Shown here in pieces: positions 25,727 to 31,010 of a stretch of 64,000 bases of DNA. The DNA lies in NCBI GenBank assembly GCA_051878795.1, contig JBJEKU010000010.1, forward strand, positions 13,231 through 77,230, read 5' to 3'. The notes under the pieces were generated by a model, which ran no database searches, was not told the origin of the DNA, and saw only the letters and a list, made by a program, of their open reading frames with translations. The position numbers and the translations under genes are program-made. Source of the DNA: Eggerthellaceae bacterium. GTDB lineage: Bacteria; Actinomycetota; Coriobacteriia; Coriobacteriales; Eggerthellaceae. Position 1 is the stretch's first letter, and each line of letters opens with the position of its first letter.

Positions 25727-25761
25727 CGACCCGGGATTGTTCCCGGGCCGTTTTGTTGTTT
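25727..25761 (+). terminator. Rho-independent terminator after the SPFH gene
   Basis: CGACCCGGGA-TTGT-TCCCGGGCCG hairpin (one mismatch) followed by TTTTGTTGTTT. Confidence 0.6.
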
Positions 25762-25803
25762 GGGACGATGATGATGGGCTGAAAGCTTCGATGTGGATTG
25801 GAA

Positions 25804-27030
25804 TCAGTAATTCAGTCCAAAAGCCCAAAGGGGTATCACGTTTTCGCATCCGTATTCGATGCCGTCTCTGATCACATAGCCGTTTTCGATATCCCTAATC
25901 TGCGCTTGCCCCTTTCCAGGGCCGCCAACCTCGAATGTGCATTTTCCGATTGTGAAGTCCGATGCTTTCGATGCGGTGACTAGATGGTTCACTCTCATTT
26001 GGTTGAAGAAGAAGGTTTCCCTGACGGTGCCTGCGCTGCAGTTCTCGCATAGATTGAACAGAATGTTGGGATTGTCAAGGAACACCTTCTCGGGTTTCCC
26101 CAATGCGCCTAGTCCGCTGGCTCCTGTTCGCAAAAGGGCGATCATCCCAGCCTTCTCCATGTATACAAGGTAGTCTTCGACGCTATTCCTACTGATTTGG
26201 ATTTGCTTTGCCAGATTGCTGATGTTCGGTTTGAAGGGCACGAGTTCGCTGATCACAACCATTAGTTTGAGCAATTTGCGTCCAGTAGACATGTTCATTT
26301 GGGCGTATGATGGGATGTCCTGTTCGAGGGTTCGGGTGATAACCTGCCTCAGTTTCATTGCGAAATCCGGATCTGCTCCAAATGGGTAATAACCCGATTG
26401 AAGGTATTCCTCGAAAAGAGGGAGCGGGTGGTCGACTTCCGGGATGGAAACTTTGTTTTCGAGAATCTGATCAAGCGTCAGGATCGGTGCGTCGATGTCG
26501 TAACGAATCTTGAGAAACTCACGGAAGGAGAGGCCTTGCATGAGGTATCGGGGGGCGCGACGGGATAGGTCTGCTTCGCCTTTTTCGATATCGAGAACCG
26601 ACGAGCCGGTGAAGTAGACGTGCATGTTGGGATATGCGTCATAGATATTCTTCAGTTCACGGGACCATTGCGGGTATTTATGCACCTCATCGATGAAAAG
26701 ATATCTTCCGCCATGCTTATAGAATGCATCGGCTGCATCCACAAGCGTATGCGTAGTGAAGAACAGGTGGTCTGCTGTTACATAGAGCGCTTCGCCTTTG
26801 CTGTGGGTGTCGCGGATCCGTTGCAGGAAGAGCGTCGTTTTTCCGACACCGCGCGGACCGACTAATGCGAGCATTCGGTTGTTCCAGTCGATACGATTGT
26901 ATTGGTACCGCTTGAAATCGAATCTCATATGTGCGAGTTGGTTTTCCATGTATTCGTAAAGTGATTCCATAGCTACCTGTTTCTTCGGGGTATCGAGTGA
27001 AATGCTGTCGACACGAGCTGATAGATCCAT
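25804..27030 (-). CDS. AAA+ ATPase of the AAA_14 + DUF4143 (COG1373) family
   Basis: Walker A GPRGVGKTT, Walker B YLFIDEVHKY, and a C-terminal DUF4143-like tail (SDFTIGKCTFEVGGPGKG). The start is uncertain: ATG 27030 (MDLSAR), ATG 26970 (MESLYEY, which I slightly prefer), or the track start at 27102. Confidence 0.8.
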   Translation of the reverse strand: MDLSARVDSISLDTPKKQVAMESLYEYMENQLAHMRFDFKRYQYNRIDWNNRMLALVGPRGVGKTTLFLQRIRDTHSKGEALYVTADHLFFTTHTLVDAADAFYKHGGRYLFIDEVHKYPQWSRELKNIYDAYPNMHVYFTGSSVLDIEKGEADLSRRAPRYLMQGLSFREFLKIRYDIDAPILTLDQILENKVSIPEVDHPLPLFEEYLQSGYYPFGADPDFAMKLRQVITRTLEQDIPSYAQMNMSTGRKLLKLMVVISELVPFKPNISNLAKQIQISRNSVEDYLVYMEKAGMIALLRTGASGLGALGKPEKVFLDNPNILFNLCENCSAGTVRETFFFNQMRVNHLVTASKASDFTIGKCTFEVGGPGKGQAQIRDIENGYVIRDGIEYGCENVIPLWAFGLNY

Positions 27031-27032
27031 TA

Positions 27033-27115
27033 TTGCACTATAATAGTGCAATAATTCTATAAAATTGCTCACAAATAGAGCAATAAATGGCAAAAAATGC
27101 ACAATAATAGTGCAA
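27033..27115. promoter_or_regulatory. Array of three phased 19-bp inverted repeats (putative operators) containing -10-like ATAATA spacers
   Basis: TTGCAC-TATAATA-GTGCAA (27033-27051), TTGCTC-ACAAATA-GAGCAA (27065-27083) and ATGCAC-AATAATA-GTGCAA (27097-27115). Their centres are exactly 32 bp apart. Confidence 0.55.
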
Positions 27116-27372
27116 AACAGTAACGATGAACTCTCTTTTGGAAGATCACCGAGTAAGTCTGAAGGTCGGGGATGCTTCTCCAGTAAGCCCTCTTTTGCCT
27201 ATCGGTCATCTTTCTCAAAGTGTTTGATTTACGTTAGGGAAGCGCAATCGATGGGCTTCCCAAGGGAATTTCTCCTTGTATGAGGGTGGTTTTTCTTGGT
27301 GATTCCTTTATCGATCATACTGTTTGACGGGGCGAGTTCTGCTGTCCTTGCTTGAAGTCTGATTACCATGAG

Positions 27373-28848
27373 ATGGGAGCCAAAGTGTCGAACAGTGTGG
27401 ATTCTGGATATCAATTCGTTGACCTCTCATCTGCAGAGGCTATTGAAAAACATGCGGAGAAGCTTCAGGGGATGACCTTTCGCGAGGTAATTGATTTGGG
27501 AATCGTTCCTGAAGGAGTGTCTCGCGAATACAACAGTAAGCGCTATAAGGGCGGGATGGGAACCTTGATTGAGGAGCGCTTCTTTGGTTACAAGGCGAAT
27601 AGCGTTCAAGGGCCTGACTTCGAGGAAGCTGGCGTGGAACTGAAAGTGAGCTGCTTCGACGTCAAGAAAGATGGTGGCATTGCGGCAGGCGAACGTTTGG
27701 TTCTGACCATGATTCCGTTCGATAGCCCTATTGAGGATGACTTCTATGAGTCTCACGTATGGGAGAAGAGTGCGAATATCATGCTCGTGTATTACGAACG
27801 TAATCGAGACATCGACTCTTACGACCAGGTTATCAGGTATACATCGTTATTCACTCCGCCTGCGGAAGACTTGAAGATCATTGAAGACGATTACAAGAAA
27901 ATCGTTCGGCTCATTCAAGAAGGTCACGCTGAAGAACTCTCTGAGAGTATGACCACGTATCTTGGTGCGTGTACGAAGGGGTCAACTGCTGCGACCATGT
28001 GGGTCGATCAATTCTATCCTCCTCATTCCAAAGCAAAGAAGCGAGCCTTCTGTTTTAAGCGGCAGTATATGGATTTCGTCCTCCATCACTACATCATGAA
28101 GGAAGCCAGCGACTCGGAAGCGATTCTGTCAAGTGCCGAAGAGCTATCCGAGATGTCCTTTGAAGAATTGGTTCTTTCGAAGATCGACTCTTACGTGGGA
28201 AAGAGCGACCGAGAGCTTTCCCATGAACTTGGAATAACTTATTCGGGTAACAAGGCGCAGTGGACGAGGATTACTTTTGCCATGCTTGGCTTGAAAGGGA
28301 ATAAGGCGGAAGAGTTCGAGAAGGCGAACATCTCTGTTCGTACGGTTCGCGAAGAGGAATCCGGAAGGATACGTGAGTCGCTTTCCCTGAACACGATAAG
28401 CTTTTTGGATTTGGTGGATGAAGAATGGGAAGAGGCTCCACTTCACGAATACTTTGAGGAAACAAGATTCTTGTTCGTCGTTTTCAGAAAGCAAGGAGGT
28501 GAGTATGTCCTTTCTGGCGCACGATTCTGGTCGATGCCTCAAGAGCATATCGATGGGCCTCTGCGCGATTGCTGGCAGAGAACCCAGAACATTGTAAGGA
28601 CCGGGGTCGAACTTGCCGTGGTTCCTTTCGGTGATTCCGACCGCGTTGAGAACAATCTTCCAAAGAAGAGCGACAATCCCGTTGCTCACGTGCGACCGCA
28701 TACGTCGAAGGCTTGGTATCGCTTCGAGGACGGCTCAACGAGGGGCCACTCTCCCCAATTCGGGGATGAGCTTCCTGATGGACGTGAAATGACCAAGCAG
28801 AGCTTCTGGCTGAACAACGACTACATTCACTCGATTATCAGCTCGTAG
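27373..28848 (+). CDS. Type II restriction endonuclease, Sau3AI/MutH family (probably GATC-specific)
   Basis: Similarity to my recollection of Sau3AI runs along the whole length: GVELKVSCF...GERLVLTMI, EGHAEELSESMTTYLGACTKGS, KAKKRAFCFK, EETRFLFVVF, FWSMPQEHIDGPL, HVRPHT, MTKQSFWLNNDYI. The start is uncertain (TTG 27352, ATG 27373 or GTG 27385). Confidence 0.85.
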   Translation: MGAKVSNSVDSGYQFVDLSSAEAIEKHAEKLQGMTFREVIDLGIVPEGVSREYNSKRYKGGMGTLIEERFFGYKANSVQGPDFEEAGVELKVSCFDVKKDGGIAAGERLVLTMIPFDSPIEDDFYESHVWEKSANIMLVYYERNRDIDSYDQVIRYTSLFTPPAEDLKIIEDDYKKIVRLIQEGHAEELSESMTTYLGACTKGSTAATMWVDQFYPPHSKAKKRAFCFKRQYMDFVLHHYIMKEASDSEAILSSAEELSEMSFEELVLSKIDSYVGKSDRELSHELGITYSGNKAQWTRITFAMLGLKGNKAEEFEKANISVRTVREEESGRIRESLSLNTISFLDLVDEEWEEAPLHEYFEETRFLFVVFRKQGGEYVLSGARFWSMPQEHIDGPLRDCWQRTQNIVRTGVELAVVPFGDSDRVENNLPKKSDNPVAHVRPHTSKAWYRFEDGSTRGHSPQFGDELPDGREMTKQSFWLNNDYIHSIISS

Positions 28849-28950
28849 TGAAGAGTCCCTCCATTGGGACGATGGATATCGATCTTTCGGACTTCGATCG
28901 GATACAATGCACAGAGGAAAAGTGGAGCACACAGCAGCGATTGGAGAAAC

Positions 28951-30216
28951 GTGAGCTCAAAAATCAAGGTTGCCGAGCTTTTTGCCGGCGTTGGCGGTTT
29001 TCGCCTTGGATTAGAAGGATATTCGAACCCTGGTCATCCCGAATTCGAAATGGAGCCCGCTGGGCCGTTCCAGACGGTCTGGGCGAATCAGTGGGAGCCT
29101 CCTGGAACAGAAAGACGCCAGTTTGCGGCGCGTTGCTATAAGGAGCGCTTTGGCGAGAAAGAGCTCGTGGTCGAGGATATCAACAAGGTGCTTGACCAGT
29201 ACGAAGCGGGGGAAATCGACATTCCCGATGTTGACATGGTTGTCGGTGGCTTTCCCTGTCAGGATTATTCGGTAGCGAAATCCCTCTCAAACGCTCGCGG
29301 CATCGAAGGCAAGAAGGGTGTTCTTTGGTGGGATATCGAACGCTTCCTTGCCTTGAAGCAGCCTCGTTTTGTTCTTCTGGAAAATGTGGACCGATTACTG
29401 AAGAGTCCTGCTTCGCAAAGAGGTCGTGATTTTGCGATTATGCTTTCTTGCCTGTGCAATCTTGGATATGCGGTTGAGTGGCATGTGGTGAACAGTGCTG
29501 AGTATGGCTTCAGTCAGCGCCGAAAGCGTGTATATATCTATGCGGAGCGTACTGAGGAGAAATGGAATCTGAAGGAGAGGATAGATTACGGGGTGCTTGC
29601 AAGAGCGCTTCCCATCGAATCTCCTTCGCAGACAACGCTCTTCGGTATTTCGAAAGACCCCTATGAGGTTTCACAGCATTTTGGCGAAGGCTTGAAGAAA
29701 TCGCCTTTCGAAACCGGGGGAGTATGCCAGAACCATGAGGTTGTCACCTATCAGGTTGTGGAGAGGTACGGCGGTAAGCGAATGACCCTAGGTGATGTCC
29801 TTGTCAGCGAGATGGAAGTACCGGGTTCATTCTATATTTCAGAAGATCAGCTTGAGAAATGGGAATACCTAAAAGGCGGTAAGCGAGAAAAAAGGGTCAA
29901 CAAGAAGACAGGTTATGAGTATTACTACTCAGAGGGGTCTATGGCTTTTCCCGATGCAACCGATAAGCCGTCCCGAACTATATTAACAGGGGAGGGGGGT
30001 TCTGGTCCTTCGCGCTTCAAACATGTGATCAAAACGGAAAACGGCAGATATCGCAGGCTTGTGCCTGATGAGTTGGACCAGTTGCAAGGTTTCCCCAAGG
30101 GTTGGACGAATACCGGCATGACTGATGGGAATCGTGCTTTCTGCATGGGCAATGCGCTGGTAGTGGGAGTGCCCCATTTAATCGGATGCGAGATTGCAAA
30201 GCAGCTGCGGGGGTAG
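28951..30216 (+). CDS. DNA (cytosine-5)-methyltransferase
   Basis: Motif I FAGVGGF, motif IV GGFPCQDYS, motif VI ENV, motif VIII QRRKRVYIY, motif X GNALVVGV. I chose GTG 28951, 4 nt after GGAG. The track start TTG 28864 is the alternative. Confidence 0.9.
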   Translation: MSSKIKVAELFAGVGGFRLGLEGYSNPGHPEFEMEPAGPFQTVWANQWEPPGTERRQFAARCYKERFGEKELVVEDINKVLDQYEAGEIDIPDVDMVVGGFPCQDYSVAKSLSNARGIEGKKGVLWWDIERFLALKQPRFVLLENVDRLLKSPASQRGRDFAIMLSCLCNLGYAVEWHVVNSAEYGFSQRRKRVYIYAERTEEKWNLKERIDYGVLARALPIESPSQTTLFGISKDPYEVSQHFGEGLKKSPFETGGVCQNHEVVTYQVVERYGGKRMTLGDVLVSEMEVPGSFYISEDQLEKWEYLKGGKREKRVNKKTGYEYYYSEGSMAFPDATDKPSRTILTGEGGSGPSRFKHVIKTENGRYRRLVPDELDQLQGFPKGWTNTGMTDGNRAFCMGNALVVGVPHLIGCEIAKQLRG

Positions 30217-30351
30217 CACCATCAATCAGCAATGCAGTTTAGCCTCCATACATGGTGAAAAACGTATATGGTCTATTGAAGCCGGTAATGCAGGTTCTAT
30301 TCAATAAGTTCAGGAGGTCTACGGAATCAGGGAAAGGAATAGGAGGGTGAG

Positions 30352-30957
30352 ATGGATGCTTTTGAAAAAGGAAGTAACCCAAGAGCGGAAGATGAGAATG
30401 GGCTTCCTCAGCCTCAAGAATACGATAAGCCTCTTGTTACGGCCTTTGATTATTATTCCGATGAGTACTCTGAGGCTGCAACGCTTGATGAAGCAATAGA
30501 AATGAGGGGCTTCAAGGCGATGCTCGAAGATGTAGTCCCGGGAGATTTCGATAATCCTTCGACTGATATGGAGAAGCGTGGGGTTGTTGAACTCTGGGCG
30601 GATTATCTCTGGAAGGTATCCGATACTCGCGATGTCGATGGAGAGCGGCTTGCGGATAGCGTTAATGAGGGAGACTGGCTGAAGGTTGATATTGATGACA
30701 CCGAAGAGTATGGACCAGATTTCCTGTTTTCCACTTTGGACGATAAGCGCCTTCCGTTTTCTGCCTACCGTGATTACGACGACAGATTCCTATGCAAGGA
30801 GTTCGAAAAGCTTGAGGGTGGGCAGAGGCTGATACTTCGAGTTCGGGAGAAGATATGCTTTGGTGGGACTTGCGCGCCTCATGATCCGGATACGAATTGG
30901 CATATTTACACATGCAAAGCCGACGTATACAGAATCTCAGAGAAATCTGAAGGGTAA
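30352..30957 (+). CDS. Hypothetical, strongly acidic 201-aa protein
   Basis: Strong RBS AGGAGGGTGAG before the ATG, and the same AT-rich codon style as the R-M genes. By hand count there are about 49 D/E against about 24 K/R. No family recognised. Confidence 0.6.
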   Translation: MDAFEKGSNPRAEDENGLPQPQEYDKPLVTAFDYYSDEYSEAATLDEAIEMRGFKAMLEDVVPGDFDNPSTDMEKRGVVELWADYLWKVSDTRDVDGERLADSVNEGDWLKVDIDDTEEYGPDFLFSTLDDKRLPFSAYRDYDDRFLCKEFEKLEGGQRLILRVREKICFGGTCAPHDPDTNWHIYTCKADVYRISEKSEG

Positions 30958-31010
30958 TTTGAATTTTCCCTGACGTTTCGAGCGCTGGAAAATGACAGCT
31001 TTTGTTAATG

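What the first reader, a model, noticed from the sequence alone, without database searches (positions are those of the whole stretch)
27002..27115. Three 19-bp palindromes at exact 32-bp phasing in the ATPase / R-M divergent region
Read directly from the sequence:
- TTGCAC-TATAATA-GTGCAA (27033-27051)
- TTGCTC-ACAAATA-GAGCAA (27065-27083)
- ATGCAC-AATAATA-GTGCAA (27097-27115)

All three fit wTGCwC-N7-GwGCAA, and their centres (27042, 27074, 27106) are exactly 32 bp apart, about three helical turns. The first site sits inside a perfect 25-nt palindrome (27030-27054, TTATTGCACTAT-A-ATAGTGCAATAA). A degenerate fourth copy (ATGCTG-TCGACAC-GAGCTG, 27002-27020) lies 31 bp further left. The spacers carry -10-like TATAAT/ATAATA hexamers.

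This looks like a cooperative operator array for a dimeric DNA-binding protein, placed face-to-face on one side of the helix. Yet the island encodes no obvious small HTH controller (C-protein). The binder could be the DUF4143 ATPase itself, the acidic orphan acting indirectly, or a host factor. The array also bears on the true start of the ATPase gene. The track start at 27102 would place all three sites inside the coding sequence, and a start at 27030 overlaps site 1. This favours ATG 26970.
Basis: seen in the sequence. Interest (0 to 1): 0.75.

Follow-up and report, generated by a model that had tools for sequence, protein, structure and literature searches.

The report
Self-operator array of a mobile ATPase gene
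The three evenly spaced palindromes are real and belong to the neighbouring ATPase gene, not the restriction-modification genes: they are a docking array conserved across bacterial phyla, most likely letting this very common but uncharacterised candidate defence protein switch off its own promoter.

Summary
Three dyads of type TTGCAC-N7-GTGCAA lie at 27033-51, 27065-83 and 27097-115, exactly 32 bp apart, and rank 1-3 of the 64-kb window.

Comparative data change the picture. The array is not an R-M control region. It is the 5' part of a self-contained cassette: phased palindromes, promoter and a 388-aa AAA_14/DUF4143 ATPase gene (25804-26970, minus strand; ATG 26970 confirmed).

- In 80 homologous loci from three or more phyla, the motif is about 700-fold enriched in the 200 bp upstream of the ATPase. 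Spacing is 32-33 bp. None of these loci carries the R-M genes.
- A motif-only metagenome scan returned the ATPase next to the array in 64% of hits.
- Clades with a different dyad (TCCCTCAnTGAGGGA) keep the 33-bp phasing and carry R261K at the start of the recognition helix of a MarR-like winged helix.
- The dyads cover the core promoter.

Best reading: cooperative autorepression by the ATPase itself. Binding and the sign of regulation are inferred, not shown.

The dyad core and spacing match the E. coli NtrC enhancer, but the sigma-54 features are absent. The proposed fourth site is not supported. DNA homology between cassettes ends at the distal dyad and at the stop codon, which hints at unexplained mobility.

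The parts
27033..27051 (.). Site 1, the promoter-proximal dyad TTGCAC-N7-GTGCAA. It is the core of a perfect 27-nt palindrome (27029-27055) and is predicted to cover the transcription start of the ATPase gene.
   Evidence: I3. Weight-matrix rank 1 of the window. In 11 of 11 Coriobacteriia relatives the proximal dyad directly follows a TAnnnT hexamer.
27065..27083 (.). Site 2, a dyad with a symmetric variant of the arms (TTGCTC-N7-GAGCAA). It is predicted to cover the -35/spacer region of the ATPase promoter.
   Evidence: Weight-matrix rank 3. GAGCA half-sites recur in relatives such as L062, L017 and class E loci.
27097..27115 (.). Site 3, the distal dyad ATGCAC-N7-GTGCAA. By analogy with relatives it marks the 5' edge of the cassette.
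   Evidence: Weight-matrix rank 2. In related cassette pairs, DNA homology begins 0-4 nt upstream of the distal dyad.
27054..27059 (-). Putative -10 hexamer TAGAAT (ATTCTA on the + strand) in the 13-nt linker between site 2 and site 1.
   Evidence: Read from the sequence. A TAnnnT hexamer occupies the same linker in L001, L003, L004, L005, L069, L007, L008, L012, L013 and L017. This is inferred; no transcript data exist, and the consensus promoter scan found nothing.
26971..27047 (-). Predicted 5' untranslated region of the ATPase mRNA. The start near 27047 is inferred from the -10 position.
Evidence: Inference.
25804..26970 (-). ATPase gene, 388 aa: AAA+ core, winged helix and a PD-(D/E)XK-like C-terminal domain. 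It is the proposed binder of the array.
   Evidence: Pfam AAA_14 at 98.3 bits against a cut-off of 27; DUF4143 at 19.4, below the cut-off. PADLOC PDC-S01 models at E=1.4e-24. Homologues are 388-389 aa. AlphaFold2 model with pLDDT 85.7 and pTM 0.85.
26512..26883 (-). AAA_14 P-loop ATPase core (residues 30-153). Walker A is GPRGVGKTT and Walker B is LFIDE.
   Evidence: these residues are invariant. Nearest solved folds are RuvB, ORC/Cdc6, MgsA, Avs4 and Apaf-1.
26077..26292 (-). Winged helix-turn-helix (residues 227-298). The recognition helix is residues 261-273 and begins S-R-N. The wing is residues 277-298.
   Evidence: Secondary structure of the model. Fold search with the C-terminal half returns MarR/ArsR-type repressors, several solved with DNA (MexR, FabT, HsmR, CouR, PefR, CzrA), at E 4e-3 to 2e-2 and probability 0.96-1.0. 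R261K co-varies with dyad class.
25807..26070 (-). C-terminal alpha/beta domain (residues 301-388), PD-(D/E)XK-like, with invariant D338 and E347. The canonical Lys of (D/E)xK is Gly here.
   Evidence: The assignment of DUF4143 to the PD-(D/E)XK superfamily comes from PMC3424549. Nuclease activity was not tested.

Best explanation
The three dyads are the operator array of a self-contained gene cassette: phased palindromes, promoter and an AAA_14/DUF4143 ATPase gene. The proposed mechanism is as follows.

- The ATPase binds each 17-19-bp dyad as a dimer through its MarR-like winged helix. The half-site is TTGCAC.
- The dyads lie three helical turns apart (32 bp), so bound dimers sit on one face of the DNA and can contact each other, probably through the AAA+ domains.
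- In this window, site 2 lies over the -35/spacer region, a TAGAAT -10 lies in the linker, and site 1 lies over the transcription start. Occupancy would therefore exclude RNA polymerase and hold the ATPase-nuclease at a low, self-limited level.

Shown: the array is non-random. It is conserved with the ATPase gene across phyla and independently of neighbouring genes. Its phasing and its position relative to promoter motifs are conserved. The dyad type changes together with the recognition helix. The protein has a repressor-type winged helix.

Inferred: that the ATPase is the binder, that binding represses rather than activates, that binding is cooperative, and the oligomeric state.

The adjacent Sau3AI-family R-M genes are neighbours in a low-G+C defence island. 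They are not part of the unit.
For: 1. Association with the ATPase gene. Exact TGCAC-N7-GTGCA occurs 59 times in 15.8 kb of ATPase-upstream DNA and 3 times in 586 kb elsewhere in 80 loci from Coriobacteriia, Bacteroidota and Firmicutes-labelled bins. None of these loci has the R or M gene, and no neighbouring gene is conserved.

2. Reverse test. A motif-only scan of metagenomes (two dyads 32 bp apart) gave 120 loci. In 61 a full ATPase gene, and in 16 one cut by the contig end, starts right next to the array (64%). Another 4-7 have ATPase remnants.

3. Geometry. Centre-to-centre spacing is 32 bp in 42 of 55 cases, 33 in 8 and 31 in 2. Clades with a different dyad (TCCCTCAnTGAGGGA) or an N8 spacer keep 32-33 bp.

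4. Co-variation. All 11 loci with the TCCCTCA-type dyad have S-K-N at the start of the recognition helix. All 67 xGCAC-type loci have R at that position.

5. Fold. The confident model shows a canonical winged helix, and its nearest solved relatives are MarR/ArsR repressors bound to palindromic DNA.

6. Promoter overlap. In Bacteroidota the proximal dyad centre is 16 nt (modal; class C 14 nt) upstream of the TAnnTTTG box. In 11 of 11 Coriobacteriia loci a TAnnnT hexamer lies in the linker just before the proximal dyad.

7. Paralogue specificity. Distant AAA_14/DUF4143 genes carry their own different phased repeats. One subfamily only 22% identical to this protein has TATTCCACA-N7-TGTGGAATA or decayed versions, in 2-5 copies at about 33 bp. 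Plasmid homologues of 43-47% identity (L203, L204, L206) have their own palindromes over the promoter, whereas two others (L202, L205) showed no perfect-arm palindrome.

8. Variant sites are mostly asymmetric (13 against 3). This fits half-site recognition by a protein rather than a hairpin.
Against: - No binding, footprint or transcript data exist. The -10 assignment in the window is by analogy, and the generic sigma-70 scan found no promoter.
- The R261K co-variation is essentially one clade, so it counts as one evolutionary event.
- Fold-search E-values for the winged helix are weak (4e-3 to 2e-2), and the C-terminal-half model is only moderate (pLDDT 73).
- Solo arrays without an ATPase gene, and arrays in front of other genes (patatin-like, methyltransferase), exist. 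The array can therefore persist, and perhaps function, without a binder encoded next to it.
- The sharp cassette boundaries at the distal dyad suggest the array may have a second role that autorepression does not explain.
- Site 2 in the window is a symmetric variant. That is what a hairpin model would predict.
Confidence: 0.68

Rival explanations
1. The array is, mainly or additionally, the cis-acting end of a mobile single-gene cassette. The ATPase-wHTH-nuclease would recognise it for excision, insertion or copying, and any transcriptional effect would be secondary.
For: - In pairs of 85-94%-identical cassettes in unrelated contexts, DNA homology starts 0-4 nt upstream of the distal dyad (11 of 25 upstream breaks) and stops -2 to +4 nt from the stop codon (16 of 32 downstream breaks).
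- No recombinase travels with the cassette.
- Solo arrays exist. In L083 the array is joined directly to the DNA that follows the stop codon in L010.
- Head-to-tail arrangements occur in L216, L128 and L169.
- Flanking inverted repeats are enriched: mean longest match 6.11 against 5.63 +/- 0.11. In L006 an 18-nt inverted repeat abuts both ends.
- Some loci have long flanking direct repeats (L114, 121 nt).
- The protein has a PD-(D/E)XK-like domain.
Against: - There is no consistent target-site duplication.
- Palindromes occur at one end only.
- The canonical catalytic Lys is absent in this subfamily.
- No empty or filled site pair was obtained.
- Boundaries at functional edges could partly reflect selection plus recombination in defence islands.
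- The fixed position of the dyads relative to promoter boxes is explained by regulation, not by mobility.
Confidence: 0.17
2. The array is an enhancer-like assembly platform, as for NtrC. Dimers bound three turns apart would nucleate an AAA+ ring that activates transcription or performs ATP-driven work on DNA, rather than repressing.
For: - The dyad core and the spacing are the same as at the E. coli glnAp2 NtrC sites: TGCACCAATATAGTGCT and AGCACCATGTTGGTGCA, with starts 32 bp apart.
- The binder candidate is an AAA+ protein with intact Walker A and B motifs.
- Arrays have 2-4 dyads, enough for four to eight protomers.
Against: - There is no sigma-54 interaction domain.
- There is no GG-N10-GC promoter within kilobases of the array.
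- The dyads overlap the core promoter instead of lying about 100 bp upstream.
- The DNA-binding fold is a winged helix, not a Fis-type HTH.
Confidence: 0.08
3. A host-encoded regulator, such as an NtrC-family or other global factor, binds the dyads, and the ATPase gene is simply one of its targets.
For: - The motif equals the NtrC consensus core.
- Orphan arrays precede other genes.
- True NtrC arrays were pulled out by the same pattern, upstream of glnA in L122 and L142 and in viral contigs L209-L214.
Against: - The same dyad accompanies the gene in Coriobacteriia, Bacteroidota and Firmicutes-labelled genomes.
- Within Bacteroidales, different ATPase clades carry different dyads.
- Two AAA_14 genes in one locus carry different repeats.
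- The motif is otherwise absent from 586 kb of flanking DNA and from the rest of the window.
Confidence: 0.04
4. The palindromes act as nucleic-acid hairpins, either as an RNA leader, attenuator or terminator, or as DNA cruciforms, rather than as duplex protein-binding sites. Alternatively they control the divergent R-M genes like a C-box.
For: - Site 3 plus its T-run scores as terminator-like on the minus strand.
- Site 2 carries a compensated change.
- The array lies between the ATPase and R genes.
Against: - Stems are only 5-6 bp.
- Phased variant sites break complementarity in 13 cases and keep it in 3.
- In Bacteroidota the dyads lie upstream of the -7 box and so are not transcribed from that promoter.
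- Rfam gives nothing above noise.
- None of 80 related arrays is next to this R-M, and no small HTH gene is present.
Confidence: 0.03

Closest known systems
NtrC (GlnG) enhancer at E. coli glnAp2, bound by an AAA+ bacterial enhancer-binding protein
   Same: The 17-bp dyad core is the same, TGCAC-N7-GTGCA, with one mismatch in each E. coli site. The spacing between adjacent dyads is the same 32 bp. The binder is an AAA+ ATPase that binds as dimers and is thought to oligomerise from phased sites (established knowledge).
   Different: The ATPase here is AAA_14, with no sigma-54 interaction domain. There is no sigma-54 promoter. The DNA-binding module is a winged helix rather than a Fis-type HTH. 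The dyads overlap the core promoter rather than sitting about 100-140 bp upstream. The hosts include Coriobacteriia and Bacteroidota. The resemblance is most likely convergent.
MarR/ArsR-type winged-helix autorepressors and their palindromic operators
   Same: The winged-helix fold is nearest to MexR, FabT-DNA, HsmR-DNA, CouR-DNA, PefR-DNA and CzrA. The operators are 17-19-bp palindromes overlapping the regulator's own promoter.
   Different: The winged helix is an internal domain of a 388-aa AAA+ / PD-(D/E)XK-like protein. There is no Pfam MarR/ArsR sequence match. The operators come as arrays of 2-4 (up to 5) sites in strict three-turn phasing.
Controller (C) protein / C-box regulation of type II R-M systems
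   Same: Palindromic operators in a promoter region next to an R-M operon in a defence island.
   Different: There is no C gene. The array follows the ATPase gene and never this R-M in 80 relatives. The dyad sequence and the 32-bp repeat differ from C-boxes (from memory).
Initiator-type AAA+ proteins next to their own binding repeats (archaeal Orc1/Cdc6 with ORB elements; DnaA with DnaA boxes at its own promoter)
   Same: An AAA+ core, lid and (winged) helix architecture. ORC/Cdc6 and RuvB are among the best whole-protein fold matches. Repeated sites lie in an A+T-rich stretch beside the gene, and DnaA is known to autoregulate.
   Different: There is no replicon context and no other conserved gene. 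The cassettes sit in ordinary chromosomal sites. TM-scores are low (0.23-0.38).
PADLOC candidate defence gene PDC-S01 (COG1373; AAA_14 + DUF4143)
   Same: The window protein matches six PDC-S01 models, the best at E=1.4e-24. It lies in a low-G+C island beside an R-M system. The family is described as an ATPase fused to a PD-(D/E)XK domain, the fourth most common PADLOC-detected system, with no experimental validation (PMC12988326).
   Different: Nothing about DNA-binding specificity, promoter arrays or cassette structure was found in the searchable literature. The window protein's DUF4143 score is below Pfam's cut-off.

Membership tests
AAA_14/DUF4143 ATPases (COG1373; PADLOC PDC-S01 candidates) | AAA_14 (PF13173) domain above Pfam's gathering score | tested here: met
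   98.3 bits against a cut-off of 27, residues 30-153 of the 388-aa protein.
AAA_14/DUF4143 ATPases (COG1373; PADLOC PDC-S01 candidates) | DUF4143 (PF13635) C-terminal domain above the gathering score | tested here: inconclusive
   19.4 bits against a cut-off of 28.1 in the window protein. Many homologues of 64-79% identity carry a precomputed PF13635 hit. The canonical E-x-K is E-V-G in this subfamily.
AAA_14/DUF4143 ATPases (COG1373; PADLOC PDC-S01 candidates) | Match to PADLOC PDC-S01 profile models | tested here: met
   Six PDC-S01 models hit, the best at E=1.4e-24. PADLOC's own system-level thresholds were not applied.
AAA_14/DUF4143 ATPases (COG1373; PADLOC PDC-S01 candidates) | Protection against phage | not testable with these tools
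NtrC-type enhancer (sigma-54 bacterial enhancer-binding protein sites) | 17-bp dyads TGCAC-N7-GTGCA | tested here: met
   Sites 1 and 3 match exactly, and site 2 has a symmetric A/T change. The E. coli glnAp2 sites match with one mismatch each.
NtrC-type enhancer (sigma-54 bacterial enhancer-binding protein sites) | Adjacent dyads three helical turns apart | tested here: met
   32 bp in the window. 32 bp between the two E. coli glnAp2 sites.
NtrC-type enhancer (sigma-54 bacterial enhancer-binding protein sites) | Binder carries a sigma-54 interaction AAA+ domain | tested here: not met
   Pfam finds AAA_14 only and no Sigma54_activat domain in the ATPase. No such gene is conserved beside related arrays.
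NtrC-type enhancer (sigma-54 bacterial enhancer-binding protein sites) | Sigma-54 promoter (TGGCAC-N5-TTGCW) downstream of the sites | tested here: not met
   No match with up to 2 mismatches between 18975 and 31823. The window-wide count is below the chance expectation.
R-M controller (C-protein / C-box) operators | Small HTH controller gene within the R-M unit | tested here: not met
   The small ORFs between 26950 and 27450 have no family hit, and the R and M genes are the only R-M genes.
R-M controller (C-protein / C-box) operators | Operator co-occurs with the R-M genes in related loci | tested here: not met
   0 of 80 loci with the ATPase gene contain a relative of the R or M protein.
MarR/ArsR-type winged-helix autorepressor with palindromic operator | Winged helix-turn-helix fold | tested here: met
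   H227-243, H250-257 and H261-273 plus a beta-hairpin wing. The top fold matches are MarR/ArsR repressors, at probability 0.96-1.0 but E only 4e-3 to 2e-2.
MarR/ArsR-type winged-helix autorepressor with palindromic operator | Sequence membership in a MarR/ArsR Pfam family | tested here: not met
   No such Pfam hit at E<=0.01.
MarR/ArsR-type winged-helix autorepressor with palindromic operator | Palindromic operator overlapping the regulator's own promoter | tested here: met
   This rests on promoter motifs only. The dyad centre is 14-16 nt upstream of TAnnTTTG in Bacteroidota. A TAnnnT hexamer lies in the linker before the proximal dyad in 11 of 11 Coriobacteriia loci. No transcript mapping exists.
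MarR/ArsR-type winged-helix autorepressor with palindromic operator | Demonstrated binding of the protein to the operator | not testable with these tools
   Needs EMSA or footprinting. Only co-variation speaks to it.
Replication-origin repeats (Orc1/Cdc6-ORB, DnaA boxes, plasmid iterons) | Repeats lie in a replicon or origin context with partner replication genes | tested here: not met
   No conserved neighbour in 80 loci. The loci are ordinary chromosomal contigs of many taxa.
Structured RNA or hairpin repeats (leader, terminator, REP-like) | Stem pairing kept by compensatory changes; element lies in a transcript; known RNA family | tested here: not met
   13 asymmetric against 3 symmetric variant sites. 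The dyads lie upstream of the -7 box in Bacteroidota. Rfam gives only sub-threshold noise.

The most novel reading that the evidence does not exclude
The phased palindromes, promoter and AAA+-wHTH-PD-(D/E)XK gene together form a previously unrecognised kind of minimal, single-gene mobile cassette. Its product would recognise the terminal dyad array both to shut off its own promoter and to direct precise excision, insertion or copying of the cassette, perhaps into palindromic or hairpin targets. This would explain four observations:
- homology ends exactly at the distal dyad and at the stop codon;
- solo arrays remain like footprints;
- cassettes stack head to tail;
- the family has spread across bacterial phyla and become one of the most common 'defence candidates'.
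Probability: 0.17. Interest if true: 0.88.

Novelty: new variant of a known kind. Interest (0 to 1): 0.66.

Why it matters
AAA_14/DUF4143 proteins (COG1373; PADLOC PDC-S01) are reported as the fourth most common candidate defence system in prokaryotes. They have no known mechanism, ligand or regulation (PMC12988326), and only three papers in the searchable library mention DUF4143 at all.

This finding provides:
- a specific, testable DNA ligand for one large subfamily: TTGCAC-N7-GTGCAA dyads in three-turn phasing;
- a candidate specificity-determining residue, R261, at the start of the recognition helix;
- a simple model, cooperative autorepression, that can be tested with a gel shift and a reporter;
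- evidence that very divergent subfamilies, about 22% identical, follow the same rule with their own repeats.

It also shows that the gene behaves as a discrete cassette bounded by the array, which raises the question of how it moves.

For annotation, it corrects the ATPase start to 26970. It also shows that the 'divergent R-M control region' reading is wrong, which matters for anyone engineering or interpreting this Sau3AI-type R-M locus.

Tried and rejected
- **Fourth degenerate site (27002-27020).** Weight-matrix rank 397, and the arms are not complementary. Rejected.
- **-10 hexamers inside the dyad spacers.** The spacers are not conserved among relatives. The conserved TAnnnT is in the linker.
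- **Control of the R-M genes.** No R or M relatives occur in 80 related loci.
- **Known RNA families.** Only sub-threshold hits, including a plant miRNA model that is an artefact of the palindromes.
- **Generic sigma-70 promoter scan.** No hit in 26700-27500, so the promoter placement rests on comparative motifs.
- **Sigma-54 promoter.** None found.
- **Solved structures by sequence.** Only P-loop matches to RecA and similar proteins. The whole-protein fold search gave generic AAA+ matches with low TM-scores.
- **Conserved partner gene.** None. The largest flank cluster is another AAA_14 paralogue in 5 loci.
- **Short target-site duplications at cassette ends.** Not above the shuffled control.
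- **Phage carriage.** One weak phage-collection protein hit. The 8 viral contigs with the double dyad have no ATPase and look like NtrC-type sites.
- **Prior literature on DUF4143, COG1373 or PDC-S01 regulation.** Nothing found. One search failed on term syntax.
- **Classification script.** My first script for the motif-selected loci mislabelled full genes because of a query with an insertion. It was redone.
Full report
**1. The observation**

Reading the window confirms the three 19-bp dyads at 27033-27051, 27065-27083 and 27097-27115. Their centres are exactly 32 bp apart. Site 1 is the core of a perfect 27-nt palindrome, 27029-27055, slightly longer than reported. The region is the A+T-richest part of a low-G+C island, about 25.75-31.0 kb, in a roughly 60% G+C genome.

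**2. The genes around it**

- On the minus strand lies an AAA_14 ATPase with a sub-threshold DUF4143 match.
- On the plus strand lie a Sau3AI-family endonuclease (NCBIfam equivalog at 513 bits; likely start 27373) and a C5 cytosine methyltransferase.
- The ATPase is 100% identical to a protein of an Eggerthellaceae MAG.
- All 120 listed homologues are about 388-389 aa and align from the Met at 26970. The longer ORF from GTG 27102 is therefore an artefact, and all three dyads are upstream of the gene.

**3. Whose element is it?**

I fetched 80 genomic loci encoding relatives of the ATPase, 52-81% identical. They come from Coriobacteriia, many Bacteroidota and some Firmicutes-labelled bins.

- Exact TGCAC-N7-GTGCA occurs 59 times in the 200 bp upstream of these genes (15.8 kb in all) and 3 times in the remaining 586 kb, about 700-fold enrichment.
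- Loci without the exact motif carry close variants in the same phasing: CGCAC...GTGCG in Olsenella and Slackia, TGCAY...RTGCA, N8 spacers, mixed GAGCA half-sites. One Prevotella-centred clade has a quite different dyad, TCCCTCAnTGAGGGA.
- None of the 80 loci contains a relative of the R or M protein, and no flanking gene is conserved.

The array therefore belongs to the ATPase gene. The R-M system is only a neighbour.

**4. The reverse test**

I scanned metagenome contigs for nothing but two TGCAC-N7-GTGCA dyads 32 bp apart.

- In 61 loci a full-length ATPase relative begins right next to the array in the expected orientation.
- In 16 more the gene is cut by the contig end.
- In 4-7 loci only remnants remain.
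- The rest are contig edges, satellites, solo arrays, arrays in front of other genes, and genuine NtrC sites upstream of glnA.

**5. Geometry**

- In the protein-selected set, centre-to-centre spacing is 32 bp in 42 of 55 intervals, 33 in 8 and 31 in 2. The remaining three are 64-66 bp, which skips a decayed site. Arrays have 2-4 dyads.
- The TCCCTCA-type arrays have three dyads at 33 bp, and the N8 variants have 32-33 bp.
- Three-turn phasing is thus kept even where the half-site sequence has been replaced. This points to a constraint set by the architecture of the binding protein.
- Flanks of the dyads are strongly A/T.
- A matrix trained only on other genomes ranks the window's sites 1st, 2nd and 3rd in 64 kb.

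**6. Position relative to promoters**

- In Bacteroidota loci the proximal dyad centre lies a modal 16 nt upstream of a TAnnTTTG box, or 14 nt for the TCCCTCA class. TAnnTTTG is the -7 element of Bacteroides promoters (from established knowledge). The dyad therefore covers the -33 region.
- In all 11 Coriobacteriia loci examined, a TAnnnT hexamer sits in the linker immediately before the proximal dyad.
- In the window this hexamer is TAGAAT (27059 to 27054 on the minus strand). Site 2 therefore lies over the -35/spacer region and site 1 over the predicted start near 27047.

This is a repressor-type arrangement. It rests on motifs, not transcripts, and the generic promoter scan found nothing.

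**7. Who binds?**

- The AlphaFold2 model (pLDDT 85.7, pTM 0.85) shows an AAA+ core, a helical lid, a canonical winged helix (recognition helix 261-273, beta-hairpin wing 277-298) and a small alpha/beta C-terminal domain.
- Whole-protein fold matches are AAA+ proteins that carry winged helices: RuvB, ORC/Cdc6, MgsA, Avs4 and Apaf-1. TM-scores are low.
- The C-terminal half alone matches MarR/ArsR repressors, several solved on palindromic DNA. Probabilities are 0.96-1.0, but E-values are only 4e-3 to 2e-2.
- The first residues of the recognition helix are S-R-N in all 67 xGCAC-type loci and S-K-N in all 11 TCCCTCA-type loci. This is a single clade, so the evidence is suggestive rather than statistical.
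- Distant AAA_14/DUF4143 paralogues carry their own repeats. Examples in the fetched loci are TTCCACA-N7-TGTGGAA twice in L044, with others in L199, L067 and L037.
- I followed the L044 subfamily, which is only 22% identical to the window protein over the ATPase core. Its members have TATTCCACA-N7-TGTGGAATA or decayed versions in 2-5 copies at about 33 bp, ending at the -7 box.
- Plasmid-borne relatives of 43-47% identity (Emticicia, Runella, Persicobacter) have their own palindromes over the promoter, whereas the Aliarcobacter (37%) and Parabacteroides (42%) relatives showed none in the perfect-arm scan.

Paralogue-specific sites, the same site in different phyla, and the absence of any partner gene together make the ATPase itself the most economical binder.

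**8. Hairpins or protein sites?**

Among phased sites that deviate from the consensus, 13 break arm complementarity and only 3 keep it. The window's site 2 is one of those 3. The stems would be only 5-6 bp. In Bacteroidota the dyads lie upstream of the -7 box. Rfam gives nothing. I therefore favour duplex recognition of half-sites.

**9. Resemblance to NtrC**

The dyad core is that of NtrC sites. In E. coli MG1655, the two sites upstream of glnA are TGCACCAATATAGTGCT and AGCACCATGTTGGTGCA, with starts 32 bp apart. That is the same core and the same spacing as here.

The defining sigma-54 features are absent. There is no Sigma54_activat domain, no GG-N10-GC promoter and a different DNA-binding fold. 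The dyads also sit on the promoter, not 100 bp upstream. I read this as convergence on a geometry that suits dimers feeding an AAA+ oligomer. It is not family membership.

**10. An unexpected extra: a discrete cassette**

- In pairs of 85-94%-identical genes in unrelated contexts, DNA homology begins 0-4 nt upstream of the distal dyad and ends within -2 to +4 nt of the stop codon. This holds for 11 of 25 upstream breaks and 16 of 32 downstream breaks.
- L083 keeps the array but joins it directly to the DNA that follows the stop codon in L010, at the same genomic site.
- Arrays follow other ATPase genes head to tail in L216, L128 and L169.
- There is no consistent short target duplication.
- Flanking inverted repeats are enriched, and some loci have long imperfect direct repeats abutting both ends.
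- No recombinase travels with the cassette.

I cannot explain how the cassette moves. A role for the array and the PD-(D/E)XK-like domain in mobility is the most novel reading the evidence leaves open.

**11. What is known**

PADLOC lists this family as candidate PDC-S01. A 2026 survey calls it the fourth most common system in prokaryotes, an ATPase fused to a PD-(D/E)XK domain, with no experimental validation (PMC12988326). DUF4143 is listed as 'unknown' in the PD-(D/E)XK census (PMC3424549). I found no description of its DNA-binding specificity, promoter arrays or cassette structure in the searchable library. That library omits most subscription journals.

**12. Verdict**

- The interpretation as a cooperative operator array is supported, and the ATPase is the best candidate binder.
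- The link to the R-M system is not supported.
- The kind of element, an autoregulatory operator array, is known.
- Three things appear to be new: its occurrence in this abundant uncharacterised family, the NtrC-like geometry on a non-sigma-54 AAA+ protein, and the array-bounded cassette.

Noticed in passing
L003/L005/L069, L023/L031, L085/L161, L111/L114, L033/L052, L146/L157 (cassette ends); by analogy window 25804 and 27115: DNA homology between related ATPase cassettes in unrelated contexts starts 0-4 nt upstream of the distal dyad and stops within about 4 nt of the stop codon. No recombinase gene travels with the cassette. The gene plus its array behaves as a discrete cassette, and the means of movement is unknown.
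   Followed up: partly
L083 160-208 compared with L010 3758-5200; L169 1978-2026; L128 6321-6369; L150 2015-2063; L113 6503-6551: Several kinds of orphan array exist. L083 is a solo array joined directly to the DNA that follows the stop codon at a filled site. Other arrays lie just after the stop codon of another ATPase gene. Others are fused to the last ~25 codons of a deleted ATPase. In five near-identical contigs, an array plus -7 box precedes a patatin-like gene.
   Followed up: partly
L006, L026, L028 (inverted repeats); L114 316-442 and 1711-1837, L119, L020, L068, L018 (direct repeats): Sequences flanking the cassette are enriched for inverted repeats; in L006 an 18-nt inverted repeat abuts both ends. 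Some loci have long imperfect direct repeats on both sides: 121 nt in L114, and a duplicated terminator hairpin in L018. There is no consistent short target duplication.
   Followed up: partly
L201 (E. coli MG1655) 2208-2224, 2240-2256 and 362-378; L122, L142; L209-L214: The E. coli NtrC sites upstream of glnA have the same dyad core and the same 32-bp spacing. A perfect TGCAC-N7-GTGCA also lies upstream of glnL. Motif-only scans recover NtrC-type TGCACC-N5-GGTGCA pairs upstream of glnA in metagenomes and in eight viral contigs.
   Followed up: partly
L044 (minus-strand paralogue), L215-L221, L199, L067, L037, L203, L204, L206: Very divergent AAA_14/DUF4143 genes have their own subfamily-specific promoter repeats. 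One subfamily has 2-5 units at about 33 bp (TATTCCACA-N7-TGTGGAATA and decayed forms). This suggests a family-wide rule. In L216 two cassettes of different subfamilies sit head to tail.
   Followed up: partly
window 25750-31000: A low-G+C island (about 0.46-0.50, against about 0.60 in the flanks) begins at the ATPase stop codon. It contains the ATPase cassette, a Sau3AI-family endonuclease (27373-28848), a C5 methyltransferase (28864-30216) and an unassigned 201-aa ORF (30352-30957). No tRNA or integrase search was made at its borders.
   Followed up: partly
L023 5175-6243 compared with L022: Bacteroides sp. KFT8 has an extra segment of about 1.07 kb inserted immediately after the ATPase stop codon, relative to B. 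xylanisolvens XB1A. Nine bases are repeated at both ends, which looks like an insertion-sequence or MITE event.
   Followed up: no
window 27098-27114 (minus strand) and 27031-27115: Site 3 followed by TTTTTT scores as an intrinsic-terminator-like hairpin on the minus strand. The whole array gives a sub-threshold Rfam match to a plant microRNA precursor model. Both are side effects of the palindromes.
   Followed up: yes
window 27116-27372: About 257 bp lie between the distal dyad and the likely start of the endonuclease gene, with no family hit for its small ORFs. The R-M promoter presumably lies here but was not analysed.
   Followed up: no
L154 1-700: A 32-bp-period satellite (GTGCAGACCTGTGCACACAAAACGTGCATCTT-like units) matches the double-dyad pattern through its own repeat. 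It is unrelated to the ATPase array.
   Followed up: yes
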